Positions 27,184 to 39,708 of a stretch of 64,000 nucleotides of DNA are shown piece by piece. This DNA comes from Candidatus Babeliales bacterium (GTDB lineage: Bacteria; Babelota; Babeliae; Babelales; JACPOV01). Within the stretch, counting starts at the first letter, position 1; every line of letters starts with the position of its first letter. The notes below the pieces were generated by a model. That model did no database searches. It was not told the DNA's origin and was given only the letters and a program-made list of their open reading frames with translations. A program made the position numbers and the translations under genes. The stretch is from the NCBI GenBank assembly GCA_050250855.1, contig JBFWNW010000001.1, positions 409,357-473,356 of the forward strand, in the 5' to 3' direction.

Positions 27184-27672
27184 TTATTGATAATATTCTT
27201 CAAAAGTAGTTTGTAAAAGTAAAATTTTGAAAAAATACTTTATACTTATATATAAACCATACCCAGGTAATTTTTCAATAAATGATATGACTGGGTATCT
27301 TTTTCTAACGATTTTTCCATCACAGCTTCCATAATAAGAGGAAATGATTATATTTTCAGTTTCCTTATCAACCATTCCCTCATGCATAAGTCCAAGCTTT
27401 TCAAAAGTATTAATTGTTTCTTGTTTAAAGCGTTTATATTCTTCCTTTTTTTGATTTTCTGCCTCTTGGGGACTTAGATCTGGGTCGTTTGTGTAAAAAC
27501 AATATTGAACTAAAAAGAAGTAGGGCCATTTATCAATTTCATGTAAAGCTTCCCATACCTTGTCTATTTTTTCTTGTGGAACATCGACACCATTGCGTAA
27601 TACTGTTGCTTCAAGGACATTATTATTTAAAAAATTAAGAACTAAAAACACAATAAATAGCTTTTTTTTCAT
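27184..27672 (-). CDS. Hypothetical secreted protein
   Basis: 162 aa. The signal peptide MKKKLFIVFLVLNFLNNN is shared with the two upstream genes. Confidence 0.45.
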   Translation of the reverse strand: MKKKLFIVFLVLNFLNNNVLEATVLRNGVDVPQEKIDKVWEALHEIDKWPYFFLVQYCFYTNDPDLSPQEAENQKKEEYKRFKQETINTFEKLGLMHEGMVDKETENIIISSYYGSCDGKIVRKRYPVISFIEKLPGYGLYISIKYFFKILLLQTTFEEYYQ

Positions 27673-27686
27673 AAGGACTACTTAGC

Positions 27687-28226
27687 TTAACTTTTTAAAT
27701 GCCAAGATAAGCAGACACGGTCTTTGCATTCACCATTTTCATCCAAAGGCCAAAATTCTTGGTTTGGTTCTTGTTTAAAAAGTTCCTGATAGAGATTTAT
27801 TAAATTTTCTTTTTGCTCGGGAGTCGCTGGCTCAGGTTTTTCAGCTGGCACATGATGCATGAATTTCCCCAATAATTTTTTGCAGAAATTTTTATATTCA
27901 TGTGTAAATAATATAAATGTATGCCAATAATCATCAAGCTCTTTATGAAACATAGGTAGTGGCATAGTTGATACAGAACCTGCTATTGCAAATTTTTTAA
28001 ATTCTAGATCAAGAATCTTTAAACGTTCATTAGATACTTCTTCATGTTCTTTTTTATAACGATTCATGACAAATGTTGTATCGTAAGCAAATATTTTTTC
28101 TCTAGATTCTATTGATATGGTACTAGGCGCAGACTTTGGTACCCCACATGTCATAACAGAAAAATTATTGCCGTTATTATTTAAGAAATTAAGAAGTAAA
28201 AACACAATAGATAATTTTTTTTTCAT
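27687..28226 (-). CDS. Secreted protein with a conserved DDYWHTFILFTHEYKNFC...HHVP motif (paralog 1)
   Basis: 179 aa with a signal peptide. Highly similar to the 28370-28972 protein over ~140 aa. Confidence 0.5.
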   Translation of the reverse strand: MKKKLSIVFLLLNFLNNNGNNFSVMTCGVPKSAPSTISIESREKIFAYDTTFVMNRYKKEHEEVSNERLKILDLEFKKFAIAGSVSTMPLPMFHKELDDYWHTFILFTHEYKNFCKKLLGKFMHHVPAEKPEPATPEQKENLINLYQELFKQEPNQEFWPLDENGECKDRVCLSWHLKS

Positions 28227-28369
28227 GATAAAGCCTTTGCTGTTTAATTAAATAGCAGCAACACCAATCGTTACTGCTATTATTACTTTTACTGTTAATA
28301 GTTTAATATTTAGTGAGCTAAATATCCATTGAATAGAAGGCGCAATACCATTGTTTCAAGCTTGAAATA

Positions 28370-28972
28370 TTAAAAATCACAACTTTCACTTTCACAGTTG
28401 AAGTTACAAGCTCTACCACAAATGGAACCACACCAGCTTGTACAGTCGCTAAATTTCTCATTTTTACTCAAGGGCCAAAATTCTTGGTTTGGTTCATGAT
28501 TAAAAAGCTTCTGATATAAATTTATTAAATTTTCTTTTTGCTCAATGCTTACTGGTTCTGGATTTTCAGCAGGTACATGATGCATAAATTTCCCCAATAA
28601 TTTTTTGCAGAAATTTTTATATTCATGCGTAAATAATATAAATGTATGCCAATAATCATCAAGATCTTTGTTGCACATAGGTAATGGCATAGTTGATACA
28701 GAACCTGCTATTGCAAATTTCTTAAACTCTAGATCAAGGATTTGTAAGCGATCATCAGATACGTCTTTATGTTCTTTTCTATAGCGATTCATGACAAATG
28801 TTGTATCGTAAGCAAATATTTGTTCTCTAGATTCTATTGATAGGTTACTAGGTTCAGATTTTGGGACGCCACATGTCATAACCGGTGCATAGCAATCCAT
28901 GCTTGAAGAATTATTACCGTTATTATTTAAGAAATTAAGAAGTAAAAACACAATAGATAATTTTTTTTTCAT
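28370..28972 (-). CDS. Secreted protein with the DDYWHTFILFTHEYKNFC...HHVP motif and a Cys-rich C-terminal tail (paralog 2)
   Basis: 200 aa. The tail reads CTSWCGSICGRACNFNCESESCDF. Confidence 0.5.
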   Translation of the reverse strand: MKKKLSIVFLLLNFLNNNGNNSSSMDCYAPVMTCGVPKSEPSNLSIESREQIFAYDTTFVMNRYRKEHKDVSDDRLQILDLEFKKFAIAGSVSTMPLPMCNKDLDDYWHTFILFTHEYKNFCKKLLGKFMHHVPAENPEPVSIEQKENLINLYQKLFNHEPNQEFWPLSKNEKFSDCTSWCGSICGRACNFNCESESCDF

Positions 28973-29039
28973 AATGCTCCTTTTGTGGATTCGTTATATA
29001 AAAATCTTTATGCAATTTTGTATGAAAGTGTTTTTTTTG

Positions 29040-30467
29040 TCAATATTTTTCTGAAAATAAGCTGAAATTACCATCCTTAACCTCATAAATCGTAGAAATT
29101 GATAATTCTTTTAAAAATTCTAGATCATGAGTTACTATAATCATTGCTCCTGAATAAGCATTAAGAACTTTTATAACATGCCTCCGTATTTCAAGATCAA
29201 TATTATTAGTTATTTCATCAAGCAGTAAAAGAGAAGGATTACGTGCTGCAAGTTGCGCTAAGCATAACCGTGCTTTTTCACCACCTGATAGCGATGAAAT
29301 TTTAGCTGCGATGCTTTCCTGAGCGCTGAAAAGAAAATCATTTAAATGTTTGCGCACTTGTTGACTTGACCACATAGGAGCAGCATCTTGTATGATTTCT
29401 TCAACTGTTAAGTTGCAGTTAAGTGTTGAATAGTGTTGATCTAAATAACCAATATCATTTTTTTCTGGTATTAGCCATTCTCCTTGCAATAGTATTGCTG
29501 AATCTTGTAAAATAGCTTTTAATAGTGTTGATTTTCCAGTGCCATTATCACCTATAATTGCAATTCTAGTATCGCCTTGTAGTTGGAGATTTATATCTTT
29601 AAGCAAAGGATTTTTATAACCACAACTTCCATGATTAATAGAGACAATTGATTTTTTTGAAGGTGTTTTGCATGCTTCAAGATTAAATTTAGGCTCTAGC
29701 TCTTTATGAATAAAGTTATTGGTAAATTGTTGTTGTATATTTTCTTGAGACCTAGATAATCGTTTTAAATTTTTTCCGATAGTTTGTGATCCACTTTCTT
29801 TCATAGCGCCCAATAAACTACGATCATTTTCATTTTTATTACGGGATTTGCTTTGAGAGGCTCTTTTATTTTCTTGTTCTATCAATTTACGCAACTTGCG
29901 TTTTTCCTTGAGCAAATACTCTCGCTGGAGTTCAAGAGTATTTTTTTTGAGATCATGTTCTTTGAGATATTTTTTATAGTTTCCTCGAAAAATACTTATT
30001 AAGCTATGTTCAATATGCCAAATTTCATCAAATTCTAAGTTTAATATATCGGGGTCATGTGAAACTATTATTAATGTCCCAGAATATCGCTGTAACATGT
30101 GAATTAGTGATCTCTTGTTATTTAGGTCTAAATGATTAGTTGGTTCATCAAGGCATAAAATATCAGGATTAAGGCTGAGGGCTTTTGAAAGTTCTTTATT
30201 AAATCGTTGCCCTCCACTTAATTCAGTATACTCTTGAATTGTTTGAGGAACGTAACCAAATACTAAACTATCTGGAATAGTAACAGTCCCCTCGATGGGA
30301 TTTACAAGTCCTTGAATTATTTTAAGCAGGGTAGATTTTCCAGCACCATTAATCCCCATAATAACTATACGCTTTTTGGGATAAATTTGTGCATTAAAGT
30401 TTTCAAAACAAATTTTGTTATGAATAGAAAAAGAAATATTATTAATGCTAATTGGTTTTTTATTCAT
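29040..30467 (-). CDS. ABC-F family ATPase (two fused ABC domains, no TMD)
   Basis: Walker A motifs GINGAGKST and GDNGTGKST; signatures LSGGQ and LSGGEKARL; a basic coiled linker (KEKRKLRKLIEQENKRASQSKSR). Confidence 0.8.
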   Translation of the reverse strand: MNKKPISINNISFSIHNKICFENFNAQIYPKKRIVIMGINGAGKSTLLKIIQGLVNPIEGTVTIPDSLVFGYVPQTIQEYTELSGGQRFNKELSKALSLNPDILCLDEPTNHLDLNNKRSLIHMLQRYSGTLIIVSHDPDILNLEFDEIWHIEHSLISIFRGNYKKYLKEHDLKKNTLELQREYLLKEKRKLRKLIEQENKRASQSKSRNKNENDRSLLGAMKESGSQTIGKNLKRLSRSQENIQQQFTNNFIHKELEPKFNLEACKTPSKKSIVSINHGSCGYKNPLLKDINLQLQGDTRIAIIGDNGTGKSTLLKAILQDSAILLQGEWLIPEKNDIGYLDQHYSTLNCNLTVEEIIQDAAPMWSSQQVRKHLNDFLFSAQESIAAKISSLSGGEKARLCLAQLAARNPSLLLLDEITNNIDLEIRRHVIKVLNAYSGAMIIVTHDLEFLKELSISTIYEVKDGNFSLFSEKY

Positions 30468-30524
30468 AAAAATAACTCCTACTTATAGCATTAAGTTTAA
30501 ATTATTTTTTAAAACGAGTATATC

Positions 30525-30548
30525 AAACAAGAGTCCGGACTCTTGTTT
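30525..30548 (-). terminator. Perfect 24-nt palindrome between padR-like and ABC-F genes (terminator or attenuator, or an operator)
   Basis: aaacaagagtcc/ggactcttgttt. There is no clean T-run, so its function is uncertain. Confidence 0.3.
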
Positions 30549-30558
30549 AGTGCTTCTA

Positions 30559-31110
30559 CTATGGTAACTGATCCTTTTTTACTTTTTCAAGAGCAGATTC
30601 AATCCATGCTATTTCTGCATTCATATGCGCAATTTGCAGTTGAAAATTCTCAGAAATGTGGCGAGGTGCTTTTGTCTCTTTCATGCGCAAGGGGGTTAAG
30701 TGTTGCATAGAGTCAACAATTGACTTTAAAATGCGCACTCTATTTTCTAAAGCAAGAACAATCTCTTCTTTTGGCAGCATATTCATAAATGTCAATGCAA
30801 CTTGAAAAGGATCGATGATTGGCTTTATTTCCCACCATTGATTACGCAGAAGGCGCTTAAACTCCTCCTTACCACTTTCTGTTATTTCGTAGATTGTTTT
30901 GCCTGATGCTTCTTGTACCGTTGCATCACTGCATACCGGTTGTACAAGACCTTCTTCTGCCATAGATTTAAGGGCAAAATAGAGAGACCCATAAGCAATG
31001 TTCGCCCACTTTTCTGCATTCCATGATTCAAGCTCTTGCCGAATCTCATAGCCATGCTTAGGGCCACGTTGTGCCAATACTCCTAAAATGAGTATACGTG
31101 CTGAAGACAT
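30559..31110 (-). CDS. PadR-family transcriptional regulator
   Basis: ILGVLAQRGPKHGYEIRQELESW...YGSLYFALKSMAEEGLV is a PadR winged-helix signature. Confidence 0.8.
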   Translation of the reverse strand: MSSARILILGVLAQRGPKHGYEIRQELESWNAEKWANIAYGSLYFALKSMAEEGLVQPVCSDATVQEASGKTIYEITESGKEEFKRLLRNQWWEIKPIIDPFQVALTFMNMLPKEEIVLALENRVRILKSIVDSMQHLTPLRMKETKAPRHISENFQLQIAHMNAEIAWIESALEKVKKDQLP

Positions 31111-31262
31111 AAAAACTCCTTGGTGTTAAAAATTAAATATAAACTTATATACAAGTTTGTATAAAATATTGATCATTGTCAAGATATTGTTAATTAATTT
31201 GAAAATTCGTTTGATATGTATTAATATTATATGCATACAAATCATTTTGAGAAGGATAAAAT

Positions 31263-31700
31263 ATGCTAATTATTGAGCACTGTGTTGAAACGGCGGCCCG
31301 ACCGGAGACTGTTTGGGCGTTATACCAAGATGTATCGGCGTGGCCTTTATGGGATAAGGAAGTTGAATATGCGAAATTGCTTGGTCCTTTTGCTCTAGGT
31401 ACCAAGGGTAAGCTTAAGCCGGTTGGCGGTCCCGAGGTGCCGTTTGAGATTACGCACTTAGAACCTTTTAAAATATTTTCAGATACATCGTATGTACCTC
31501 TTGGTACGTTAATGTTTATGCATACGTTAAAAAAGCAGGCCAATGGCAAAACTGAAATATGCCATAAGGTTGAAATAAAAGGTTTTCTGAAATATTTTTG
31601 GGCGTTTGTCATTGGTAGGAATATAAAAAAAGGGCTCCCCCATGCAATGCAAAGTTTAGCAGCATTAGCAGAAAAGAAAGAAGCCAATGAAAGAAAATAA
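31263..31700 (+). CDS. SRPBCC (START/polyketide-cyclase-like) family protein
   Basis: 145 aa. The N-terminus is IEHCVETAARPETVWALYQDVSAWPLWD. The RBS is gagaagga. Confidence 0.65.
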   Translation: MLIIEHCVETAARPETVWALYQDVSAWPLWDKEVEYAKLLGPFALGTKGKLKPVGGPEVPFEITHLEPFKIFSDTSYVPLGTLMFMHTLKKQANGKTEICHKVEIKGFLKYFWAFVIGRNIKKGLPHAMQSLAALAEKKEANERK

Positions 31701-32139
31701 ATGGGAATTAAGCCGTTTTACCTCAGCTCAAGAAAGTCCAGGGTTTCTTTTGTGGCAAGTATATCTTGTATGGAAGCGTAAGATTGAATCTCGTTTAGAG
31801 TTTTTTAATCTTACCCATATACAGTTTGTGTTGCTTGCCGGGCTTGCTTATTTGCAAAAAAATAATGCTGACGTCAGTCAAGTGGAACTGGCTAATTTTA
31901 CTCAATGTGATGTTGCCATGACGTCTCAAGTGTTACGAACCCTAGTAAAAAAAAATTTAATAGAACGTTATCAAAAGCCAGACGATGAGCGCGCTAAATA
32001 TCCAAGACTCACCGCTCATGGTTTAAAAACATTGGAATCTGCTATTAAGGAGGTTGAATCAATAGATCATAATTTTTTTAATCTAGGAGCTGATTATAAA
32101 ATATTTTTAACATGTTTGCAGCAATTAATAACACGATAA
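31687..32139 (+). CDS. MarR-family transcriptional regulator
   Basis: 150 aa. LTHIQFVLLAGLAYL...VSQVELANFTQCDVAMTSQVLRTLVKKNLIER...DERAKYPRLTAHG is a MarR wHTH. Confidence 0.75.
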   Translation: MKENKWELSRFTSAQESPGFLLWQVYLVWKRKIESRLEFFNLTHIQFVLLAGLAYLQKNNADVSQVELANFTQCDVAMTSQVLRTLVKKNLIERYQKPDDERAKYPRLTAHGLKTLESAIKEVESIDHNFFNLGADYKIFLTCLQQLITR

Positions 32140-32166
32140 TATTTAATTATTCATTAAAAAGGATTT

Positions 32167-32880
32167 ATGATGACGACACTTTTATATTTACAAGATCCCA
32201 AGCAATTGGAAAGCAAGGTTACTATTCTTTCAGAAGGAATGGATGAAAGAGGAAAGTATTTTATTACTGATAAAACGCCATGCTATCCTCAAGGCGGTGG
32301 ACAACCTGCAGATCAAGGCCTCCTAGCTTTGCATGATGCTTCTTACACCATTAAAGATGTTCGCAAGGTTGAAGGAGAGATTCGTCACTATTGCGACCAG
32401 CAGATTTCTTTGCAAGAACCAGCTTTTTTGACGGTTGATGCAGCACGAAGAGTTCTTAATACCCGTTATCATACTGCAGGACATTTACTCAGCCTTATAG
32501 TAGAAAATCTTGATAGTACCTTGAAAGCGATCAAGGGTCATCAATTTCCAGGGGAAGCATATGTTGAATTTGTAGGAACACCACAAAACAGCGAACAGCT
32601 TTTGACCGACGCACAAAATTATATTAATAGGGCCCTAGAACAGAACTTTGGTGTAGTAATTAAAAATCTTGAAGGACAAGAAGCATGCGATTACATGCAA
32701 CACAATCCAGGCGGGGAATTTTTAGCAACGAGCAATGTTCGTTTATGCATTATTGGTGACTTTAAACCAGTTGCTTGTGGTGGAACCCATGTAGAAATCC
32801 TAAGCTCTCTTGGTACGGTGCAGATAACAAAAATAAAAACAAAGAAAGGTAATACTAAAATTTCTTATATGTTACCGTAG
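32167..32880 (+). CDS. alaX: AlaX-type Ser/Gly-tRNA(Ala) editing deacylase
   Basis: 237 aa. The HxxxH motif (RYHTAGHLL) and CxxxH motif (ACGGTHV) match the threonyl/alanyl-tRNA synthetase second additional domain. Confidence 0.75.
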   Translation: MMTTLLYLQDPKQLESKVTILSEGMDERGKYFITDKTPCYPQGGGQPADQGLLALHDASYTIKDVRKVEGEIRHYCDQQISLQEPAFLTVDAARRVLNTRYHTAGHLLSLIVENLDSTLKAIKGHQFPGEAYVEFVGTPQNSEQLLTDAQNYINRALEQNFGVVIKNLEGQEACDYMQHNPGGEFLATSNVRLCIIGDFKPVACGGTHVEILSSLGTVQITKIKTKKGNTKISYMLP

Positions 32881-32889
32881 GTAAATTTT

Positions 32890-34830
32890 TTATAACTTGT
32901 TTTTATCAAGAATTTTAGAACTTGCTTTATACTCTTGATAACATTCCCATGGTGTTTTTTCTGAACCAAATTTGGGTTGCGTCACTACAACGTCTTCTTG
33001 AACAAGTTTTTCTAAAAGAGTATCGAGCTTATGCATCACGCGAGCAAAGCTTTCAGGATTCGCTGTATTGAATGATTGTATTTGCACGCCATCCCCTATT
33101 GCTTTTTGGACGGTATCTTCAGTAACAATCCATGCAAACTCTTTTTCATCTGAATTAATTATTTTCTCAGGATTACTTTTGAGGGTTTCTAGCAGCTCTA
33201 AAACATTATCGCTATTCCTCGTTTCAAACAAATAGCTCAAAGGTCCTTCTCGTTTTAATTGAGCTTTTGCTTTATAGCCCCCAGATTTTGCTAGGTATAT
33301 ATGTTTTTCCAGATGGTTTTTTGGTACAGAAATCTGAATAAGATTGCCATATATAGAAAGATTATTAAATTCTTCTTCTAATGAATCAATCTCTTTTTTA
33401 TGCTTTAGATAAAAGCTTCCTTGTTTGAATTTCTCAAAAATTTCTTTTGACTGAATGTTAAGTTTCGAAATATTTGAATTGTTCAGAAAATATTGAGGTG
33501 TAGAGCTTCCTAGATTAGTGGTATTTGCAAACAATGCATAGTTGGTAAATAGTAATGCTTGACGTGAATTCTTATCAAATCTTCCTTCACGCAAGATTTT
33601 TCGACGTAGTTCCTTTTCTTGTGCAATGTGTTGAGCACTTTGATTACAGTCACTATTCTCAGGAAAGCGAGTAAAAATATAGTTATCAAGTTGTTTGGTA
33701 TGCTTTAATTGCCATAATTTTGTATATAAAAGCTCGAGCCAATAAATATTCCACATTTGTGCATGATAAAATACATAGTGTTTTTTTTGTATAAGCTCAG
33801 CTTCATATTCCATAGCTTTATTGAATACCTCAAGAGTAGTATTAAGATGTTCAAAGGATTCAGTGAATTCTGAAATGTTTTCTTGCAGGTGATTACCACT
33901 TTGTGTATTTGGTATTATCCTAAAATTGAAGTTTTGAGCTAAAAAAGGAAATAATAAACTTTTTTGTTTTTCATTTGACAGCGCATATATGACAGGAAAA
34001 TGTTTGATTTTTTTTTCATTTTTGAGCATTTTAATAATATTTGAGAGAATAATATTTCTTTGCTCTTCATTTGAATGGTGATAGATCCAAAGCAAATCTT
34101 CAATTTCACGGTCTTGTTTAAGTATTTGTAGCAATACATCTTTTTGTTCATCAGTTGACTCTTCATAAATCCAACCTAAATGGCAAACTTCTTTACCTTC
34201 TTTGAATGCTTGTACAATAGCTGAAATTACTATATCTTTTTGTTCTTTAGATGAATGAGAATAGATCGAAGGTAAAACCTGAATATCTTTGCCTTGTTTA
34301 AGCTCTTGCACCATATCTGAAAGCATGACATCCTTTTGCTCAGTTGTTAATGAACAATAGAGGTTGATATCATCTCCAAACCACCATCGAAGACCTTTGA
34401 CATACATTGTTGCCCACAGGCCGGCACTCGCAGGCATGATTTTATTATTGGAGAGTTGAGAGTGGGCGGTAGTTTGTAAACCAAGCGGCAATTGTTTTTT
34501 GTTGTGTTGATAATTCATAGCACGTACTGCTTGCAAGCCAAGAGCAGATTGATTATGTGCTAAGGTTTTGCCAAAGTTTGCAAAAAGAGAGAGGTTGTTT
34601 AAGGTCGTCGGCAGCATAGCAGTTTTTGGCTGCTTGCCAAGAACTTGTGCTGCTTTTTGTGCACCAAGAGCTCCTTGGTCTTTGAGCCAGGTTTGCGCTG
34701 CTTTATTGAAAAAGCCTTGAGCGCTTTGGGTGCTTTTTTGTACCAATTTTTGTAGGGCCTGCATAGGATAGGCCGATTGTTGCATGAAAACCAAACCTGT
34801 GCAAACAGCTATTTTAACCAGTTTATGCAT
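32890..34830 (-). CDS. Secreted protein: conserved N-terminal region, ~32-aa 'IY.xS.EEQK..L' repeats and a unique ~320-aa C-terminal domain
   Basis: 646 aa. The N-terminal ~160 aa are nearly identical to the 35691-37280 protein. Repeat examples: LPSIYSHSSKEQKDIVISAIVQAFKEGKEVCH and LLWIYHHSNEEQRNIILSNIIKMLKNEKKIKH. Confidence 0.55.
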   Translation of the reverse strand: MHKLVKIAVCTGLVFMQQSAYPMQALQKLVQKSTQSAQGFFNKAAQTWLKDQGALGAQKAAQVLGKQPKTAMLPTTLNNLSLFANFGKTLAHNQSALGLQAVRAMNYQHNKKQLPLGLQTTAHSQLSNNKIMPASAGLWATMYVKGLRWWFGDDINLYCSLTTEQKDVMLSDMVQELKQGKDIQVLPSIYSHSSKEQKDIVISAIVQAFKEGKEVCHLGWIYEESTDEQKDVLLQILKQDREIEDLLWIYHHSNEEQRNIILSNIIKMLKNEKKIKHFPVIYALSNEKQKSLLFPFLAQNFNFRIIPNTQSGNHLQENISEFTESFEHLNTTLEVFNKAMEYEAELIQKKHYVFYHAQMWNIYWLELLYTKLWQLKHTKQLDNYIFTRFPENSDCNQSAQHIAQEKELRRKILREGRFDKNSRQALLFTNYALFANTTNLGSSTPQYFLNNSNISKLNIQSKEIFEKFKQGSFYLKHKKEIDSLEEEFNNLSIYGNLIQISVPKNHLEKHIYLAKSGGYKAKAQLKREGPLSYLFETRNSDNVLELLETLKSNPEKIINSDEKEFAWIVTEDTVQKAIGDGVQIQSFNTANPESFARVMHKLDTLLEKLVQEDVVVTQPKFGSEKTPWECYQEYKASSKILDKNKL

Positions 34831-34895
34831 AACACTCCATATTGTTAATTTTCTTGCTTTGCTTAAGAGCTTTCTCTAATGAAACAAATAATTAC

Positions 34896-35666
34896 TTAAA
34901 TATCTTTTATGATATTAGTAATTTTTTTACATACTTCTTCTTGTCCGTATCTCTGATTTCCATAAAATAGTTTACCTAGCCCTACCGTTAACAATCGTAC
35001 AATTTTTGTTCCATCACAAGTTCGAGACAAAGGTAAAATATTTGAAATAATATTTGAAATGATATGCAAACCCATCAAAAACTTGATTAAACTTGTATTA
35101 AATCTTTTTTCATCTTGTTCATCATGCAATGATTCATAATAAGAACATCCCTTGAATGCCGTATAAGCATACATCAATCCGGCTAATGGCCCTGCTGCAA
35201 GCATAGTTGACAATGTCAAGATAGGGTACTTAGGTATACTTAACGATGAAGCATCAGCTCTGACAGATCCATTACCTAATGGAATTGGTGAAATATACAT
35301 AGATGGACCCGAATATTCTAAAGCTAAAGATTTTTTAAAAAACAACTTCTGAGGAAATTGCCCATAAAGTGATAGTATTGCAGCATGCCCCATTTCATGA
35401 ACTAATACTCCACCCCTCTCAAGAGCATAGAGCAATACTCCATTTTCCATAGTATTTCCAATAATATTTTTATTACGTTTAAAATATTCTAGTATTGTTT
35501 CATCTTTAGATTTACTCAATTCCCGTAATGTTTCAATCGCTTTATCTTTACATTCCATAGCAATAATGCTCACTGGATTTTCTTTGTTACAATCTTGCAT
35601 GGCTACCAGTGAAAAAACATTAAGGCACAATAACGTAATTAATTTTATTCTTTTCATGAACGCCAA
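34896..35666 (-). CDS. M50 (site-2-protease-like) membrane metalloprotease
   Basis: 256 aa. Contains an HExxH (LVHEMGHAAI) and a distal NxxPxxxxDG motif (NILPLSRTCDGTKI), with hydrophobic segments. Confidence 0.6.
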   Translation of the reverse strand: MAFMKRIKLITLLCLNVFSLVAMQDCNKENPVSIIAMECKDKAIETLRELSKSKDETILEYFKRNKNIIGNTMENGVLLYALERGGVLVHEMGHAAILSLYGQFPQKLFFKKSLALEYSGPSMYISPIPLGNGSVRADASSLSIPKYPILTLSTMLAAGPLAGLMYAYTAFKGCSYYESLHDEQDEKRFNTSLIKFLMGLHIISNIISNILPLSRTCDGTKIVRLLTVGLGKLFYGNQRYGQEEVCKKITNIIKDI

Positions 35667-35690
35667 ACCTGTTGTTTGTAATCCTATTTT

Positions 35691-37280
35691 TTATTTCATA
35701 TAGGGAAGTAATTTTTTTTTCTGTTCTTCAGTTGAACTATAATAGATATCGGATAAATTATAAATTTTTTTGCCTTCCTTAAGTGTATGTATTATATGTG
35801 GAAATAAGATATCTCGCTCTCCAGTCGAATTATAATAGATGTTCGATATCTTTAATTCCTTGCCTTCTTTAAGCGCTTTTATAATTTCTGGTAGTAAGAT
35901 CTTTCTTTGTTCTTTGGTTGACTTGCTATAAATGACATTTAAATCTTCAATTTCATCACCCCGACAAATTATCTTGCCTATGATGCTAGGAAATAAAATA
36001 TTTCTTTGCCTGTCAGTTGATCTAGCATAAATCCTAGCTAAACCATCAATTTTTTCACCCTGGTTGAGCATTTTAACAATAAATGGAAGTAATATATCTC
36101 TTTGTTTTTCAGTTGAATGCTCATAGGTCCAAAATAAATTAAGTTGATGTACAATAAATGGAAGTAATATATCTCTTTGTTCATCAGCTGAATGCTCATA
36201 GATCCAACGTAAACCATCAATATTTTTGCCTTGTTTAAGCGCTTCAGCAATACTCAGAAGTAATGTATTTTTTTGATCATAGGTTGAGAACAAATACATC
36301 ATACCTAATCCTTCAATTTTTCTGCCTTGTTTAAGTGCTTTCCCAATACTTGGCAGTAATATCTTTCTTTGTTCATCAGTTGAGTCATTATAGATTGTTC
36401 CTAAGCTTTCAATTTCCTTGCCTGTTTCAAGGGCTTGTACAATATCGGGAAGTAATATATTTTTTCTATATTCGTTAGGTGCCTTAATATAGATATTAGA
36501 TGGGCAGAAGCCTTTAATTTTCTTGCCTTGCTGAAGGGTTTGTACAATAAAAGGAAATAATATATTTTTTTGCTTTTCAGTTAAGGGGCTATAGATTAAA
36601 TCTAAATCTTCAACTATCATATTTTGCTTAAATGCTTCTGTAATGCCCGAACATAATATATTTTTTTGTTCTTCAGATAAATGCCAACAGATGGAATGTA
36701 AAGAATTAAGCTTCTTAGCGCACAGTGTTCCTTGTTTAATCTCTTGAGCAATATCTGCAATCACAACGTCTTGTTGCTCATTAGTTAATGAACGGTAGAA
36801 ATCAGGTTCATAAATATCATCCCCATACCACCATCGAAGACCTTTGACGTACATTGTTGTCCACAAGCCGGCGCTAGCATGCATGATTTTATTATTAGAA
36901 AGTTGAGAGTAGGTTGTAGTTTGTGTGCCAAGCGGCAATTGCTTTTTGTTGTGTTGATAATTCATAGCACGTACTGCTTGCAAGCCAAAAGCTTGAGATT
37001 GATTATGTGCTAAGGTTTTGCCAAAGTTTGCAAAAAGAGAGGGGTTGTTTAAGGTGGTGGGCAGCATAGCAGTTTTTGGCTGCTTGCCAAGCACTTGTAC
37101 TGTTTTTTGTGCACCAAGAGCTCCTTGGTTTTTGAGCCAGGTTTGCGCTGCTTTATTGAAAAAGCCTTGAGCACTTTGGGTGCTTTTTTGTACCAATTTT
37201 TGCAGGGCCTGCATAGGGTAGGCTGGTTGCTGCATGAACACCAAACCTGTACCGAGAGCTATTTTAACCAGTTTATGCAT
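35691..37280 (-). CDS. Secreted ~32-aa-repeat protein (about 11 repeats)
   Basis: The start MHKLVKIALGTG matches its paralog. Repeats follow the pattern L..IY..ST.EQ+.ILLP.I...L+.G..I.. Confidence 0.55.
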   Translation of the reverse strand: MHKLVKIALGTGLVFMQQPAYPMQALQKLVQKSTQSAQGFFNKAAQTWLKNQGALGAQKTVQVLGKQPKTAMLPTTLNNPSLFANFGKTLAHNQSQAFGLQAVRAMNYQHNKKQLPLGTQTTTYSQLSNNKIMHASAGLWTTMYVKGLRWWYGDDIYEPDFYRSLTNEQQDVVIADIAQEIKQGTLCAKKLNSLHSICWHLSEEQKNILCSGITEAFKQNMIVEDLDLIYSPLTEKQKNILFPFIVQTLQQGKKIKGFCPSNIYIKAPNEYRKNILLPDIVQALETGKEIESLGTIYNDSTDEQRKILLPSIGKALKQGRKIEGLGMMYLFSTYDQKNTLLLSIAEALKQGKNIDGLRWIYEHSADEQRDILLPFIVHQLNLFWTYEHSTEKQRDILLPFIVKMLNQGEKIDGLARIYARSTDRQRNILFPSIIGKIICRGDEIEDLNVIYSKSTKEQRKILLPEIIKALKEGKELKISNIYYNSTGERDILFPHIIHTLKEGKKIYNLSDIYYSSTEEQKKKLLPYMK

Positions 37281-37298
37281 AATAAATTCCATTTATTT

Positions 37299-38216
37299 TT
37301 AGAATAACCCGTGTTTATTCATATAGGGATGCAATATATTTTTCTGTTCATTAGTTGAAGAACCATAAATCTCAGATAAACCTTCAACTTCCATACCTTC
37401 ATTATATGCTTGCAGAATGCTAGACAATAATATATTTTTTTGCTCTTCAGTTGAGTGGCAATAAATGTCATCTAAATAATCAATTTTCTTGCCTTGATTA
37501 AGTGATTGTACAATATATGGAAATAATGTATTTCTTTGTTCTTCAGTTGATTTTTTATAGATATCCGATAAATATTTAATTTCTATATCTTGTTTAAGAG
37601 CTTGTATAATAGCTGGAAATAATATGTTTTTTTGCTTTTCAGTTGAGTAGAAATAAATGCCAGCTAAATTATCATTTTTTATATATGGAAGTAATCTATT
37701 TCCTTGTTCTTCAGTTGATTTTTTATAGATATCCGATAAATATTTAATTTCTATACCTTGTTTAAGGGCTTGTATAATAGCTGGAAATAATATATTTTTC
37801 TGCTTTTCGGTTGAGTGGCAATAAATGTAATCTAAATAATCAATTTTCTTGCCTTGATTAAGTGATTGTACAATATATGGAAATAATATATTTTTTTGCT
37901 CTTCAGTTGAATGGTAATAGATAAGACCTAGCCATTCAGCTTCAATACCTTGTTTAAGTTTCATTAGAATATATGGAAATAATATATTTTTTTGCTCTTC
38001 AGTTGAATCTGTATAGATCTCACCTAATTTTTCAATTTCCATACCCTGTTTAAGTTTTTCTGCAAAATATGGAAATAGTATATCTCTTTCTTCCTTAGAT
38101 GAATACCTATAGATTTTATTTAAATCATTAATTGAATGTTCACAGTTTATAGGCATAGAACTCTGTAAAGCAAACACCAAACCTGTAAAGATAGCTATTT
38201 TAACCAGTTTTTGCAT
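37299..38216 (-). CDS. Secreted ~32-aa-repeat protein (about 9 repeats, highly regular)
   Basis: 305 aa. Repeat examples: LGEIYTDSTEEQKNILFPYILMKLKQGIEAEW and LDYIYCHSTEKQKNILFPAIIQALKQGIEIKY. A ~120-nt segment is duplicated almost exactly (approx 37541-37660 vs 37708-37827). Confidence 0.55.
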   Translation of the reverse strand: MQKLVKIAIFTGLVFALQSSMPINCEHSINDLNKIYRYSSKEERDILFPYFAEKLKQGMEIEKLGEIYTDSTEEQKNILFPYILMKLKQGIEAEWLGLIYYHSTEEQKNILFPYIVQSLNQGKKIDYLDYIYCHSTEKQKNILFPAIIQALKQGIEIKYLSDIYKKSTEEQGNRLLPYIKNDNLAGIYFYSTEKQKNILFPAIIQALKQDIEIKYLSDIYKKSTEEQRNTLFPYIVQSLNQGKKIDYLDDIYCHSTEEQKNILLSSILQAYNEGMEVEGLSEIYGSSTNEQKNILHPYMNKHGLF

Positions 38217-38366
38217 AACAACTCCATCATTTATGGGAAATAATATATAAATACATAGTAATAATACCTCAAAAAAAGCCTTTTTTCAAGGGGTTTAAGA
38301 CTTATACCTTGCTTCAATTCTATATTTTGCTATGGTTATGCAAATAATGTTTAAAGGATAAAATTT

Positions 38367-38855
38367 ATGAATATACTCTCTATTTTACAAGGAACCCCCT
38401 ATTGGGTCTGGAATATACTTGCCTATCTTATTATATCAGGAGCAAAGGCAACGAAACCTGTTGTTTTTCCTCTCTGGCGTTTTGGCATAATGCCATTAGT
38501 TTTTGTAGTATGGTCACTTACTTCTTTGCATACGCGTTGCGGTAGTTGTTTATCATTGTATGCTTTTTGGGTTGCAGCATTATTTTTTGGAATAGGAGTA
38601 GGGTATTGTTTACTGCAAAGAACATCAATAACTTTCGATGCGCAAGGATCAATCCATCTTCCAGGAAGCTTTGTTCCTTTGCTTTTGTCGTTATTATTTT
38701 TTGCTGGTAAATATAGTTTAGGCGTTACGTATGCACTTAATCCAGCGTTAAAAACAAGCTTTTTATTGGGTTTTGATGTGGCATTATCAGGTGTTATTTC
38801 AGGAATTTCTTTAGGAAGATTTTTGAATATTGTTTATCGGTATAAGAAAGCATAG
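38367..38855 (+). CDS. Hypothetical integral membrane protein
   Basis: 162 aa with 4-5 hydrophobic helices. Confidence 0.45.
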   Translation: MNILSILQGTPYWVWNILAYLIISGAKATKPVVFPLWRFGIMPLVFVVWSLTSLHTRCGSCLSLYAFWVAALFFGIGVGYCLLQRTSITFDAQGSIHLPGSFVPLLLSLLFFAGKYSLGVTYALNPALKTSFLLGFDVALSGVISGISLGRFLNIVYRYKKA

Positions 38856-38859
38856 TACA

Positions 38860-39687
38860 ATGTTGTATCTTTTTATTATAACTACTTACTGTATATCATG
38901 GACATTATTGTATTATGCTGTTGCACCAGATTTAGTGATGTTTGTGCCTGGGCTTACTGCTTTTTTTTTCATGATAGTTGAAAGGAAAAGCTTTTTTGCT
39001 ATAGTGCATTCTTTGCGCCTAGGATCTTTTAGAAATCTTTTTTTGGGATTTTTAATTTCTTTATCAGCATTTTTATTATATATAAGTTGCGCTCATCTTA
39101 GTTTGTCGTGTGTTTTTGGTTTATCTGAACAAGCATTAGCTTACCATGGCAATAGTGCATTCAAGGCCTGGATTAGCTTTTTTACGATAGGTTTTCCTTC
39201 TCTTTTTGCAGTTAGCTTATTCTTTGCTTTTTTTGAAGAAATTGGATGGCGAGGTTATTTACTCAAAAAAATCAATCAAAGATATTCAATGTCAATTCTC
39301 AAGAAAAGCAGTATAGTAGGATTACTTTGGGGGTTGTGGCATATTCCTCTTTACATAATTTCTCCTACTGAGCCAGTAAGAATTGTTATATTTCTCTGCA
39401 ATGTTGTTTTAATAGCTATTCCGTACACCTGGCTTTATGAAGGTGAATATTCTGTTTGGCCTACTACCATTGCTCATGCTCTGCATAATACCTTATTTAA
39501 CGTTGTCCTTTCTGCAATAACTTTGCATTCATCGAGTTCTTTGTGGCTTTATGGTGAAGAAGGGCTTCTTGTGACCGGAGTTTATAGCATACTTATTATT
39601 ATTGGCTTTCTGGTCAATAAGTTTATACAAGCTGACAAAACAGAGTTTCTTCTATATACTAGGGTCAAAAACTTTGTAAAAAATTAA
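38860..39687 (+). CDS. CPBP-family intramembrane glutamic endopeptidase (CAAX protease-like)
   Basis: Has the EExxxR motif (FFEEIGWRGYL), a FxxxH-like motif (LWGLWHIP) and HxxxN (HALHN). The track start, TTG 38830, overlaps the upstream gene, so I prefer ATG 38860. Confidence 0.75.
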   Translation: MLYLFIITTYCISWTLLYYAVAPDLVMFVPGLTAFFFMIVERKSFFAIVHSLRLGSFRNLFLGFLISLSAFLLYISCAHLSLSCVFGLSEQALAYHGNSAFKAWISFFTIGFPSLFAVSLFFAFFEEIGWRGYLLKKINQRYSMSILKKSSIVGLLWGLWHIPLYIISPTEPVRIVIFLCNVVLIAIPYTWLYEGEYSVWPTTIAHALHNTLFNVVLSAITLHSSSSLWLYGEEGLLVTGVYSILIIIGFLVNKFIQADKTEFLLYTRVKNFVKN

Positions 39688-39708
39688 GACTGCCAAACAA
39701 GGATTCGT

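What the first reader, a model, noticed from the sequence alone, without database searches (positions are those of the whole stretch)
32890..38216. Novel ~32-aa tandem-repeat protein family (three genes) wrapped around an M50-type membrane protease
Seen in sequence:
- Three minus-strand genes encode secreted proteins made of 5-11 copies of a ~32-residue unit, consensus L..IY..ST(E/D)EQ(K/R)(N/D)ILFP.I(V/I)Q.LKQG..I...
- The 32890 and 35691 genes share an almost identical ~160-aa N-terminal region (MHKLVKIA..GLVFMQQ.AYPMQALQKLVQKSTQSAQGFFNKAAQTWLK.QGALGAQK...). This indicates a recent duplication that brackets the protease gene (34896-35666: HEMGH plus NILP....DG).
- The 32890 protein additionally carries a unique ~320-aa C-terminal domain.
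- The 37299 gene contains a ~120-nt near-exact internal duplication.

Inference: the repeat probably forms an alpha-solenoid (HEAT/ARM/TPR-like) scaffold. The embedded S2P-like protease might process or regulate these proteins. I do not recognise the repeat as a named family.
Basis: partly seen in the sequence, partly recalled or inferred. Interest (0 to 1): 0.6.

Follow-up and report, generated by a model that had tools for sequence, protein, structure and literature searches.

The report
Exported helical-repeat gene cluster in Babeliales
A protist-parasitic bacterium (Babeliales) carries three locally duplicated genes for exported proteins built from a new 32-residue helical repeat. One gene ends in an uncatalogued domain that is common across Babeliales and, by predicted fold, matched here only two giant-virus proteins. 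The small protease-like gene between them is a chance neighbour, not a conserved partner.

Summary
Three minus-strand genes (A 32890-34830, B 35691-37292, C 37299-38216) carry 5, 12 and 9 copies of a 32-residue unit. A and B share a 5' end at 88% nucleotide identity, and C has 95%-identical internal duplications.

AlphaFold2 predicts a two-helix alpha-solenoid (pLDDT 83). Its best fold matches are Pumilio (PUF) domains. No Pfam, NCBIfam or PDB sequence family reaches significance.

The interpretation needs two corrections.

- **A's C-terminal domain is not unique.** It defines an uncatalogued family found in 93 of 261 Babeliales genomes, often in tandem arrays. Its nearest clade uses a related 31-residue repeat. 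The modelled fold (pLDDT 89) matches no PDB structure, only two uncharacterised giant-virus proteins.
- **The M50-like gene is not a conserved partner.** It has HEMGH, AAGPLAG and NILP...DG motifs and scores below Pfam's cut-off. No M50-like gene lies beside the 25 relatives' loci examined. Its two distant relatives have unrelated neighbours.

All four genes lie in a 12.5-kb accessory insertion between murD and ileS.

Best reading: one Babeliales solenoid-plus-domain gene that duplicated locally into two headless solenoid paralogs, probably exported host-binding proteins. Function is inferred, not shown.

The parts
37299..38216 (-). Gene C (305 aa): signal peptide directly followed by 9 units of the 32-residue repeat. 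It has no N-region and no C-terminal domain.
   Evidence: ORF. Nine HMM units. AF2 alpha-solenoid, pLDDT 83.4. Foldseek top hits are PUF domains.
37428..37880 (-). Recent internal duplications within gene C: 111 nt at 95.5% identity and 93 nt at 95.7% identity, arranged as a mosaic.
38261..38289 (-). Best sigma-70-like promoter match upstream of gene C (TTGAAA-17-TATTAT). It is a candidate promoter for co-transcription of C, B, the M50-like gene and A.
   Evidence: a consensus match only. No minus-strand terminator-like site lies inside 32890-38216. Intergenic gaps are 6, 24 and 65 nt.
35691..37292 (-). Gene B (533 aa; it may instead start at the ATG at 37280): signal peptide, basic N-region shared with A, then 12 repeat units. 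It has no C-terminal domain.
   Evidence: 5' end shared with A. dN/dS 0.17 over the shared 150 codons.
34896..35666 (-). Divergent M50/S2P-like membrane protein (256 aa from the TTG start, or 253 aa from the ATG at 35657). It has HEMGH (35385-35399), AAGPLAG, and NILPLSRTCDG (35010-35042).
   Evidence: Pfam PF02163 E 3.5e-5, 23.7 bits, below the 27.2-bit cut-off. Motif positions. Hydrophobic segments. Distant relatives share HE(M/L)GHA and AGPLxG.
34831..34895 (-). Spacer upstream of gene A. One frame reads FVSLEKALKQSKKINNMECYA, a possible relic of a repeat-gene 3' end. The RBS context is shared with B and C.
   Evidence: It is the best non-genic hit of the repeat HMM, but at E 0.1, which is not significant.
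34375..34830 (-). Gene A residues 1-152: signal peptide plus a strongly basic N-region (14 K/R against 1 D/E) shared with B.
33907..34374 (-). Gene A residues 153-308: 5 more divergent units of the 32-residue repeat.
32893..33918 (-). Gene A residues 305-646: conserved alpha/beta C-terminal domain of an uncatalogued Babeliales family. Invariant residues are H356 (33763-33765), N430 (33541-33543) and N436 (33523-33525).

Best explanation
The block is an operon-like cluster inside a 12.5-kb accessory insertion between murD and ileS of a Babeliales (Dependentiae) bacterium, an obligate intracellular parasite of protists.

**Gene A** is the founding gene. It belongs to a Babeliales-wide, often multi-copy family with this build:
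- a Sec-type signal peptide;
- a basic N-region;
- an alpha-solenoid of roughly 31-32-residue helical repeats;
- a conserved ~300-residue alpha/beta C-terminal domain with an invariant His and two invariant Asn. The predicted fold matches no solved structure, only two uncharacterised giant-virus proteins.

**Genes B and C** arose locally. B took A's 5' end (RBS, signal peptide, N-region) and amplified the repeat to 12 units. C kept only the signal peptide and 9 units, and is still being reshuffled by unequal recombination. Both lack the C-terminal domain.

**Shown:** the gene structures, the duplication history, the solenoid prediction, family membership of A, the accessory context, and purifying selection on the shared N-region.

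**Inferred:** all three are exported and act as binding scaffolds toward host (or envelope) targets. The binding surface would be the variable face made of the short helix and one side of the long helix. A would deliver a catalytic or docking head, and B and C would act as headless adaptors or competitors.

**The M50-like gene** is probably a real but divergent intramembrane metalloprotease that landed in the cluster. Any role in processing A or B is unsupported beyond likely co-transcription.
For: - **Gene structures and repeats:**
- **Solenoid:** AF2 pLDDT 83.4, pTM 0.73, one 6-residue and one 16-residue helix per unit.
- **Variable face:** variability concentrates at unit positions 1, 3, 4, 7, 8, 20, 22 and 24. 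L2, I5, Y6, S9, Q13, L17, I21, L25 and G28 are fixed.
- **Duplication:** 88-94% nucleotide identity of the A and B 5' ends, including the RBS. The signal peptide is found only in these three genes. dN/dS is 0.17 and dS 0.24 over the shared 150 codons.
- **Family of A:** P0002-P0004. Found in 93 of 261 genomes of the phylum, with up to 9 matches per genome.
- **Related arrays:** 4 full paralogs plus 1 truncated paralog in tandem in a Babeliales MAG, OY970310.1.
- **Conserved residues:** a 28-sequence alignment has invariant H, N, N.
- **C-domain fold:** AF2 with that alignment gives pLDDT 89, pTM 0.87. There is no PDB fold match (best E 0.18). Two giant-virus hits score E 2e-9 and 2e-7. No member hits Pfam.
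- **Repeat relatedness to the 31-residue repeat of A's nearest clade:**
  - BLAST aligns A residues 162-635 continuously.
  - hhalign gives E 0.003, in register across two units.
  - Weak cross-hits of the repeat HMMs run in both directions.
  - The C-domain tree groups A with that clade at 100/100 support.
- **Accessory context:** murD and ileS are directly adjacent in three relatives. AlaX and the CPBP gene are also absent from relatives.
- **Background:** published work says many Dependentiae proteins carry signal peptides and repeat-protein families are candidate host effectors (PMC6561590; PMC4776705).
Against: - No expression, export or host-contact data exist.
- The signal peptides were judged by eye and by hydrophobicity only. 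A Kyte-Doolittle scan flags only C's.
- Several family members carry a short Gly-rich hydrophobic segment after the N-region. If that segment is a stop-transfer anchor, the solenoid and C-domain would stay on the cytoplasmic side.
- The C-domain has no known function, so calling it a 'head' is inference.
- The same-genus genome lacks the whole cluster, so the cluster is dispensable for the lineage.
- Repeat-to-repeat homology with the 31-residue repeat is weak (hhalign probability 10%).
Confidence: 0.6

Rival explanations
1. One reading: the M50/S2P-like intramembrane protease and the flanking repeat proteins form one functional module. The protease would process or regulate the repeat proteins, for example by cleaving their shared N-terminal region.
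For: - All four genes are on one strand with gaps of 6-65 nt and no internal terminator-like site.
- A and B share a conserved N-region under purifying selection.
- The protease-like protein keeps HExxH, AGPLxG and NxxP..DG motifs.
Against: - No M50-like gene lies in the flanks examined at the other 25 loci of gene-A relatives.
- The two distant relatives of the M50-like gene, in G004 and G126, have unrelated neighbours.
- The gene has no close relative by word-indexed search among 5.8 billion proteins.
- A's and B's N-region has no clear transmembrane helix for an intramembrane protease to cut.
- The genome already has two canonical M50 genes.
Confidence: 0.12
2. The solenoids are PUF-like nucleic-acid binders. 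Each 32-residue unit would read one base of an RNA, host or bacterial, as Pumilio repeats do.
For: - The top 28 Foldseek PDB hits for C are all PUF domains (best E 5.4e-5, TMq 0.58).
- Pfam PUF gives weak whole-protein hits (E 0.0027 for C, 0.27 for A).
- The closest outside repeat protein, P0007, also carries a faint PUF hit.
- A Gln is conserved on the long helix (position 13; position 23 in about half of the units).
Against: - The unit is 32 residues with two helices, not 36 with three.
- The Pfam score of 17.9 bits is below the 26.3-bit cut-off, and no single stretch passes.
- The repeat profile finds no PUF in PDB sequences.
- The repeat regions are neutral to acidic (net charge -6 in C, -5 in A, +3 in B), unlike basic RNA-binding surfaces.
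- Alpha-solenoids match each other readily. TM scores are only 0.35-0.58 at 6-12 angstrom rmsd.
Confidence: 0.1
3. They are bacterial envelope or surface proteins (periplasmic scaffolds, an S-layer-like coat or adhesins), not proteins delivered into the host cytoplasm.
For: - They have Sec-type signal peptides and no recognised secretion-system signal.
- Membrane-protein genes are neighbours: the M50-like gene, DUF6622 and a CPBP/Rce1-like gene.
- Rapid repeat turnover is typical of surface proteins.
Against: - There is no anchor motif (no lipobox, no C-terminal hydrophobic tail).
- The C-domain's only fold matches in the two libraries searched (PDB, BFVD) are giant-virus proteins, which share the protist host but have no bacterial envelope.
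Confidence: 0.15
4. B and C are decaying by-products of duplication (pseudogenes in the making), or the duplication is an assembly artefact.
For: - The cluster is absent from the same-genus genome.
- B and C lack the conserved C-domain.
- Repeats are hard to assemble.
Against: - All ORFs are intact, each with an RBS and a signal peptide.
- dN/dS is 0.17 between the A and B N-regions.
- The copies differ by 6-12% at the DNA level, so they are not collapsed or duplicated reads.
- A truncated, headless paralog also occurs in the array of another Babeliales genome.
Confidence: 0.03

Closest known systems
Pumilio/PUF repeat domains (for example PDB 5ykh, 1m8w, 3h3d; Pfam PF00806)
   Same: Both are curved alpha-solenoids of roughly 8-9 short helical repeats of similar length. 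PUF domains are the best fold matches to the model of C, and Pfam gives faint PUF hits.
   Different: The unit here is 32 residues with two helices, not 36 with three. The Pfam score is below cut-off and there is no PDB sequence match. The repeat regions are neutral to acidic. These proteins are exported bacterial proteins, not cytosolic eukaryotic RNA regulators.
HEAT/ARM solenoids (importin-alpha, karyopherins)
   Same: Both use two-helix hairpin repeats stacked into a superhelix for protein binding. Importin-alpha and Kap114 appear further down the Foldseek list. The best outside sequence hits, P0005 and P0017, look HEAT-like with an 'LY..LT.EQ' motif.
   Different: The unit is shorter (32 against about 40 residues), with a very short first helix. 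No Pfam HEAT or ARM hit appears at E up to 1.
Exported repeat-protein arrays of Dependentiae and other amoeba parasites (ankyrin, LRR, TPR, WD40, F-box proteins; PMC6561590, PMC4776705)
   Same: These are also signal-peptide-bearing tandem-repeat proteins, locally amplified in a reduced intracellular-parasite genome and presumed to act on the host.
   Different: The repeat type here is not among those reported for the phylum. The attached C-terminal domain is uncatalogued.
Site-2 protease family M50 (RseP, SpoIVFB; Pfam PF02163)
   Same: The 34896-35666 protein has HExxH in a hydrophobic segment, a GP-containing middle segment (AAGPLAG against AGPxxN), and NxxP....DG in the last hydrophobic segment.
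   Different: It scores 23.7 bits against a 27.2-bit cut-off. There is one extra residue between the P and the DG. It has no PDZ domain. It is a third, orphan copy beside two canonical M50 genes.
Uncharacterised giant-virus proteins A0A481Z173 (Mimivirus LCMiAC02) and A0A1V0SG32 (Hokovirus HKV1)
   Same: In the two libraries searched (PDB and BFVD), these are the only structures, and they are predicted ones, that match the C-terminal domain model. Foldseek gives E 2.2e-9 and 2.0e-7, probability 1.0, TM 0.48-0.54.
   Different: Identity is 15-19%. No function is known for either. No sequence-level relative was found in viral contigs.

Membership tests
PUF / Pumilio repeat (PF00806) | Pfam model reaches the gathering score | tested here: not met
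   C scores 17.9 bits and A 11.5 bits against a 26.3-bit cut-off, and no single stretch passes.
PUF / Pumilio repeat (PF00806) | 36-residue, three-helix unit | tested here: not met
   The period is 32 residues (96 nt). DSSP on the AF2 model gives two helices per unit.
PUF / Pumilio repeat (PF00806) | Overall fold resembles the PUM-HD crescent | tested here: met
   The top 28 Foldseek hits are PUF domains, with best E 5.4e-5 and TMq 0.58. This rests on a single-sequence model, and solenoids cross-match easily.
PUF / Pumilio repeat (PF00806) | Basic RNA-binding concave surface with base-reading side chains | tested here: inconclusive
   Net charge of the repeat regions is -6, -5 and +3. No model coordinates were available to map the surface.
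Sel1 / TPR / HEAT / ARM / ankyrin / LRR (named Pfam repeat families) | Any Pfam or NCBIfam repeat model hit | tested here: not met
   None is listed at E up to 1 for A, B or C.
Peptidase M50 (site-2 protease) | HExxH zinc motif in a hydrophobic segment | tested here: met
   HEMGH at residues 90-94.
Peptidase M50 (site-2 protease) | NxxPxxxxDG motif supplying the third zinc ligand, in a C-terminal transmembrane segment | tested here: met
   NILPLSRTCDG at residues 209-219, overlapping the end of the last hydrophobic segment (193-211). It has one extra residue compared with the genome's own canonical NVLPIPLLDG and NIIPVPIMDG.
Peptidase M50 (site-2 protease) | Pfam PF02163 gathering score | tested here: not met
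   23.7 bits (22.4 in the genome search) against 27.2, E 3.5e-5.
Peptidase M50 (site-2 protease) | Proteolytic activity | not testable with these tools
Unnamed Babeliales 'solenoid + C-domain' family (defined here) | C-terminal ~300-residue domain alignable end to end, with invariant His and two invariant Asn | tested here: met
   A aligns at 23-37% identity to 27 homologues. H356, N430 and N436 are invariant.
Unnamed Babeliales 'solenoid + C-domain' family (defined here) | N-terminal signal peptide followed by a helical-repeat region | tested here: met
   Seen in A, in the OY970310.1 paralogs and in other members, by inspection. B and C share the signal peptide and repeats but lack the defining domain, so they are derivatives, not members.
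Sec-exported protein | Cleavable N-terminal signal peptide | tested here: inconclusive
   A positive n-region and a 10-13-residue hydrophobic core are seen by eye. The Kyte-Doolittle scan flags only C. No SignalP was available.

The most novel reading that the evidence does not exclude
The C-terminal domain of gene A is a previously undescribed enzyme or docking fold. Babeliales bacteria and amoeba-infecting giant viruses share it for acting on the protist host. It is carried on interchangeable, fast-evolving solenoid arms. The headless paralogs B and C compete for the same targets and so tune its activity.
Probability: 0.25. Interest if true: 0.7.

Novelty: new variant of a known kind. Interest (0 to 1): 0.5.

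Why it matters
Dependentiae/Babeliales are widespread, almost uncultured parasites of protists. Their host-manipulation toolkit is known only as lists of ankyrin, LRR, WD40 and F-box proteins.

This locus points to a further, uncatalogued family found in about a third of the genomes sampled. The family joins a helical-repeat arm to a confidently modelled domain that has no solved structural relative and whose only fold matches found here are giant-virus proteins.

If the domain is an enzyme, it would be a new effector activity shared by two unrelated kinds of amoeba parasite.

The locus also gives a clean example of how such genes diversify, through partial duplication, loss of the head domain, and repeat amplification.

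The repeat itself is an idealised 32-residue solenoid, which could interest protein engineers.

Tried and rejected
- **Pfam, NCBIfam, PHROGs and PADLOC scans of all four proteins:** nothing significant except the weak M50 hit.
- **Word-indexed search of gene C against 5.8 billion proteins:** no hit.
- **Gene C against 40 relatives' genomes:** no hit.
- **Full-length A against genome contigs:** no hit, because the chosen peptide patterns were too specific.
- **Exhaustive repeat-profile search of 1.84 billion cluster representatives:** only 14 weak hits, best E 8e-10.
  - The hits were HEAT-like proteins, one 33-residue-repeat protein, Firmicutes 'LT.EQK' surface repeats, and eukaryotic junk.
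  - The repeat is therefore effectively lineage-restricted.
- **Repeat profile, C-domain profile and M50-like protein against PDB sequences:** nothing.
- **C-domain model against PDB folds:** nothing.
- **C-domain family against IMG/VR viral contigs:** nothing. Two alignment-based scans failed for lack of a conserved stretch.
- **TALE-like reading:** considered because of the 'LT.EQ'-type motif and the 32-35-residue period. Rejected because no TALE appears in the top 50 fold hits and there is no hypervariable residue pair.
- **Lipoprotein reading:** rejected. Only A has a Cys in the signal region, and in a non-canonical context.
- **Mobile-element signals around the island:** no tRNA and no Rfam family.
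- **Relic of a repeat gene upstream of A:** not significant (E 0.1).

Full report
**1. What is in the sequence**

Four minus-strand ORFs fill 32890-38216:
- C (37299-38216, 305 aa)
- B (35691-37292, 533 aa)
- an HExxH membrane protein (34896-35666, 256 aa)
- A (32890-34830, 646 aa)

The gaps between them are 6, 24 and 65 nt. The best promoter-like site lies just upstream of C (38261-38289), and no minus-strand terminator-like site lies inside the block. Co-transcription is therefore plausible but not shown. No ORF of 80 aa or more lies on the opposite strand.

A unit HMM built from the proteins finds 9 units in C, 12 in B and 5 in A, and nothing else in the whole 1.2-Mb, 11-contig genome. The DNA period is 96 nt. 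The consensus is xLxxIYxxSTxEQKNILFPxIxQxLKQGxxIx.

Unit identity is highest within C (55%), lower in B (42%) and lowest in A (27%).

C contains two near-exact internal duplications, of 111 nt at 95.5% identity and 93 nt at 95.7%. They are arranged as a mosaic, which indicates ongoing unequal recombination.

A and B share 551 nt of 5' sequence at 88% identity, with sub-blocks at 90-94%. This stretch includes the RBS context and the signal peptide. C has the same RBS and signal peptide but goes straight into repeats. That signal peptide occurs nowhere else in the genome.

Over the 150 shared codons of A and B, dS is 0.24 and dN/dS is 0.17. Both copies have therefore been kept under purifying selection.

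**2. Fold of the repeat**

AlphaFold2 on C alone gives pLDDT 83.4 and pTM 0.73. The model is an all-helical solenoid with one 6-residue and one 16-residue helix per unit.

The fixed positions are L2, I5, Y6, I16, L17, I21, L25 and I31, plus the S9/T10 helix cap and G28. These fit a buried core. Variability concentrates at positions 1, 3, 4, 7, 8, 20, 22 and 24. These lie on the short helix and, as inferred from helical periodicity, on one side of the long helix. That pattern is expected of a binding surface.

Foldseek against the PDB returns Pumilio/PUF domains for the top 28 hits (best E 5.4e-5, TMq 0.58), followed by importin-alpha. Pfam gives only faint PUF signals below the cut-off. The repeat profile finds nothing in PDB sequences. 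The repeat regions are neutral to acidic.

I therefore file the repeat as a PUF/ARM-like alpha-solenoid by shape only. It is not a member of any named family.

**3. How far the repeat extends**

- A word-indexed search of C in 5.8 billion proteins found nothing.
- No hit appeared in 40 relatives, including the same genus.
- An exhaustive HMM search of 1.84 billion cluster representatives gave only 14 weak hits, best E 8e-10.
- The nearest are HEAT-like proteins with an 'LY..LT.EQ' motif, and one bacterial protein with a 33-residue repeat that also carries a faint PUF hit.

The repeat as such is lineage-restricted.

**4. Gene A is not an orphan**

Its C-terminal 340 residues found three metagenomic proteins at 33-37% identity. 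They then found matches in 93 of 261 genomes of the phylum, often several per genome and often in tandem.

Named records are Candidatus Babeliales MAGs. This agrees with earlier notes of this scan that the window is from Babeliales.

In OY970310.1, four full paralogs and one truncated paralog sit in tandem. Each has a signal peptide, a basic N-region and a 31-residue repeat (L..ILEAS...NQ.IIT.AI.QNI.KY). The four full paralogs also carry the same C-domain; the truncated one lacks it.

Four results link that repeat to the one in this window:
- BLAST aligns A residues 162-635 continuously with one of these paralogs, through repeats and domain.
- hhalign of the two repeat profiles aligns them in register over two units (E 0.003, but probability only 10%).
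- The repeat HMMs cross-hit weakly in both directions.
- A maximum-likelihood tree of the C-domain puts A with this clade at 100/100 support, not with the copy from A's own taxonomic family.

Other family members have different, less regular helical N-terminal regions. No member hits any Pfam model.

**5. The C-domain**

A 28-sequence alignment has an invariant His and two invariant Asn (A residues 356, 430 and 436). Nearly invariant are E343, F354, G416, F434, D561 and F565.

AlphaFold2 with this alignment gives a confident alpha/beta model (pLDDT 89, pTM 0.87). The invariant residues sit at the ends of predicted strands, which is where active sites of alpha/beta enzymes usually lie. This is inference only.

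Foldseek finds no PDB match (best E 0.18, TM about 0.1). The profile finds no PDB sequence.

Against predicted viral structures there are two clear matches: uncharacterised proteins of Mimivirus LCMiAC02 and Hokovirus (E 2e-9 and 2e-7). Sequence-level relatives in viral contigs were not found.

**6. The protease-like gene**

Pfam M50 matches at E 3.5e-5 but below the gathering score (23.7 against 27.2 bits).

The protein has HEMGH, an AAGPLAG segment at the position of the S2P AGPxxN motif, and NILPLSRTCDG overlapping the end of its last hydrophobic segment. The genome's two canonical M50 genes show the standard forms of these motifs.

It has no close relative by word-indexed search in the 5.8-billion set. 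It has two distant relatives in 150 other genomes of the order. These share HE(M/L)GHA and AGPLxG, but their neighbours are unrelated, for example a SecD-like gene.

No such gene lies in the flanks examined at the 25 loci of gene-A relatives (168 kb scanned, which includes the window's own locus; flanks were 1.5-8 kb each side).

I accept it as a probable divergent M50-like membrane protein (about 0.7). I reject a conserved functional pairing with the repeat genes.

**7. Context**

In the same-genus genome and in two genomes of the same family, murD and ileS are directly adjacent and divergent. They are 29 bp apart in the closest genome.

In this window they are separated by 12.5 kb (27184-39708). 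That stretch holds the following:
- the secreted paralogs at 27687-28972 noted earlier in this scan
- PadR and ABC-F
- SRPBCC, MarR and AlaX
- this four-gene cluster
- DUF6622
- a CPBP/Rce1-like protease

The stand-alone AlaX and the CPBP gene are also missing from the four closest genomes. No tRNA or Rfam element marks the borders. GC content is slightly below the window average.

**8. Mechanism**

*Shown:* local partial duplications of one family gene produced two headless solenoid genes that remain under selection.

*Inferred:*
- The proteins are exported through Sec. Published work on Dependentiae reports that about 44% of one genome's proteins carry signal peptides and that repeat proteins are the presumed host effectors (PMC6561590; PMC4776705).
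- The proteins bind targets through the variable solenoid face.
- A brings the conserved domain to that target, and B and C act as adaptors or competitors.

*Main uncertainties:* whether export is real, what the topology is (given the Gly-rich hydrophobic segment seen in relatives), and what the C-domain does.

**9. Verdict**

The solenoid inference is right. The protease-module idea is not supported.

The repeat is a new variant of a known kind of thing, namely exported solenoid repeat proteins of intracellular parasites. The more interesting product of the follow-up is the widespread C-terminal domain, which has no solved structural relative and matches only two giant-virus proteins by predicted fold.

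Noticed in passing
window 27184-39708: The whole 12.5-kb stretch between murD and ileS is accessory. In the same-genus genome the two genes are 29 bp apart and divergent, and they are adjacent in two further family members. No tRNA, integrase or Rfam element was seen at the borders.
   Followed up: partly
window 38367-39687 (+): A DUF6622 membrane protein and a CPBP/Rce1-like intramembrane protease (Pfam E 1.3e-15) sit divergently next to gene C. The CPBP gene is absent from the four closest genomes. It is the second membrane-protease-type gene in the same island.
   Followed up: partly
G000 C1:221129-222106 and C4:32306-32947: The genome has two canonical M50 proteases (180 and 143 bits). The island copy is therefore a third, divergent one.
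   Followed up: yes
L019 977-11667 (OY970310.1, Candidatus Babeliales MAG): A tandem array of four full paralogs and one truncated paralog of the gene-A type. Each has a signal peptide, a basic N-region and 31-residue repeats, and the four full ones also carry the C-domain. The truncated one (320 aa) lacks it, like genes B and C here.
   Followed up: partly
L025, L028, L029, L036, L019 proteins: Many family members carry a short Gly-rich hydrophobic segment (for example AIAIGLGLTAQHA, FGGLISGIFGAVYG) about 100 residues after the signal peptide. It could be a membrane anchor and would change the predicted topology.
   Followed up: no
L053 5001-6116 (P0007): An unrelated bacterial contig encodes a 371-aa protein with 33-residue repeats (KI.A...IFQHC.E.QK.ELFN.I). 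It is among the nearest outside hits of the repeat profile (E 3e-7), carries a faint Pfam PUF hit, and has no signal peptide.
   Followed up: partly
window 34831-34895 (-): One frame of the 65-nt spacer before gene A reads FVSLEKALKQSKKINNMECYA, which resembles the end of a repeat unit. It may be a relic of a repeat-gene 3' end, but the HMM E-value is only 0.1.
   Followed up: yes
window 34375-34755 and 36813-37205 (-): The N-region shared by A and B is very basic (14 K/R against 1 D/E in 127 residues), rich in Gln and Ala, and under purifying selection. It has no family match, and its role is unknown.
   Followed up: partly
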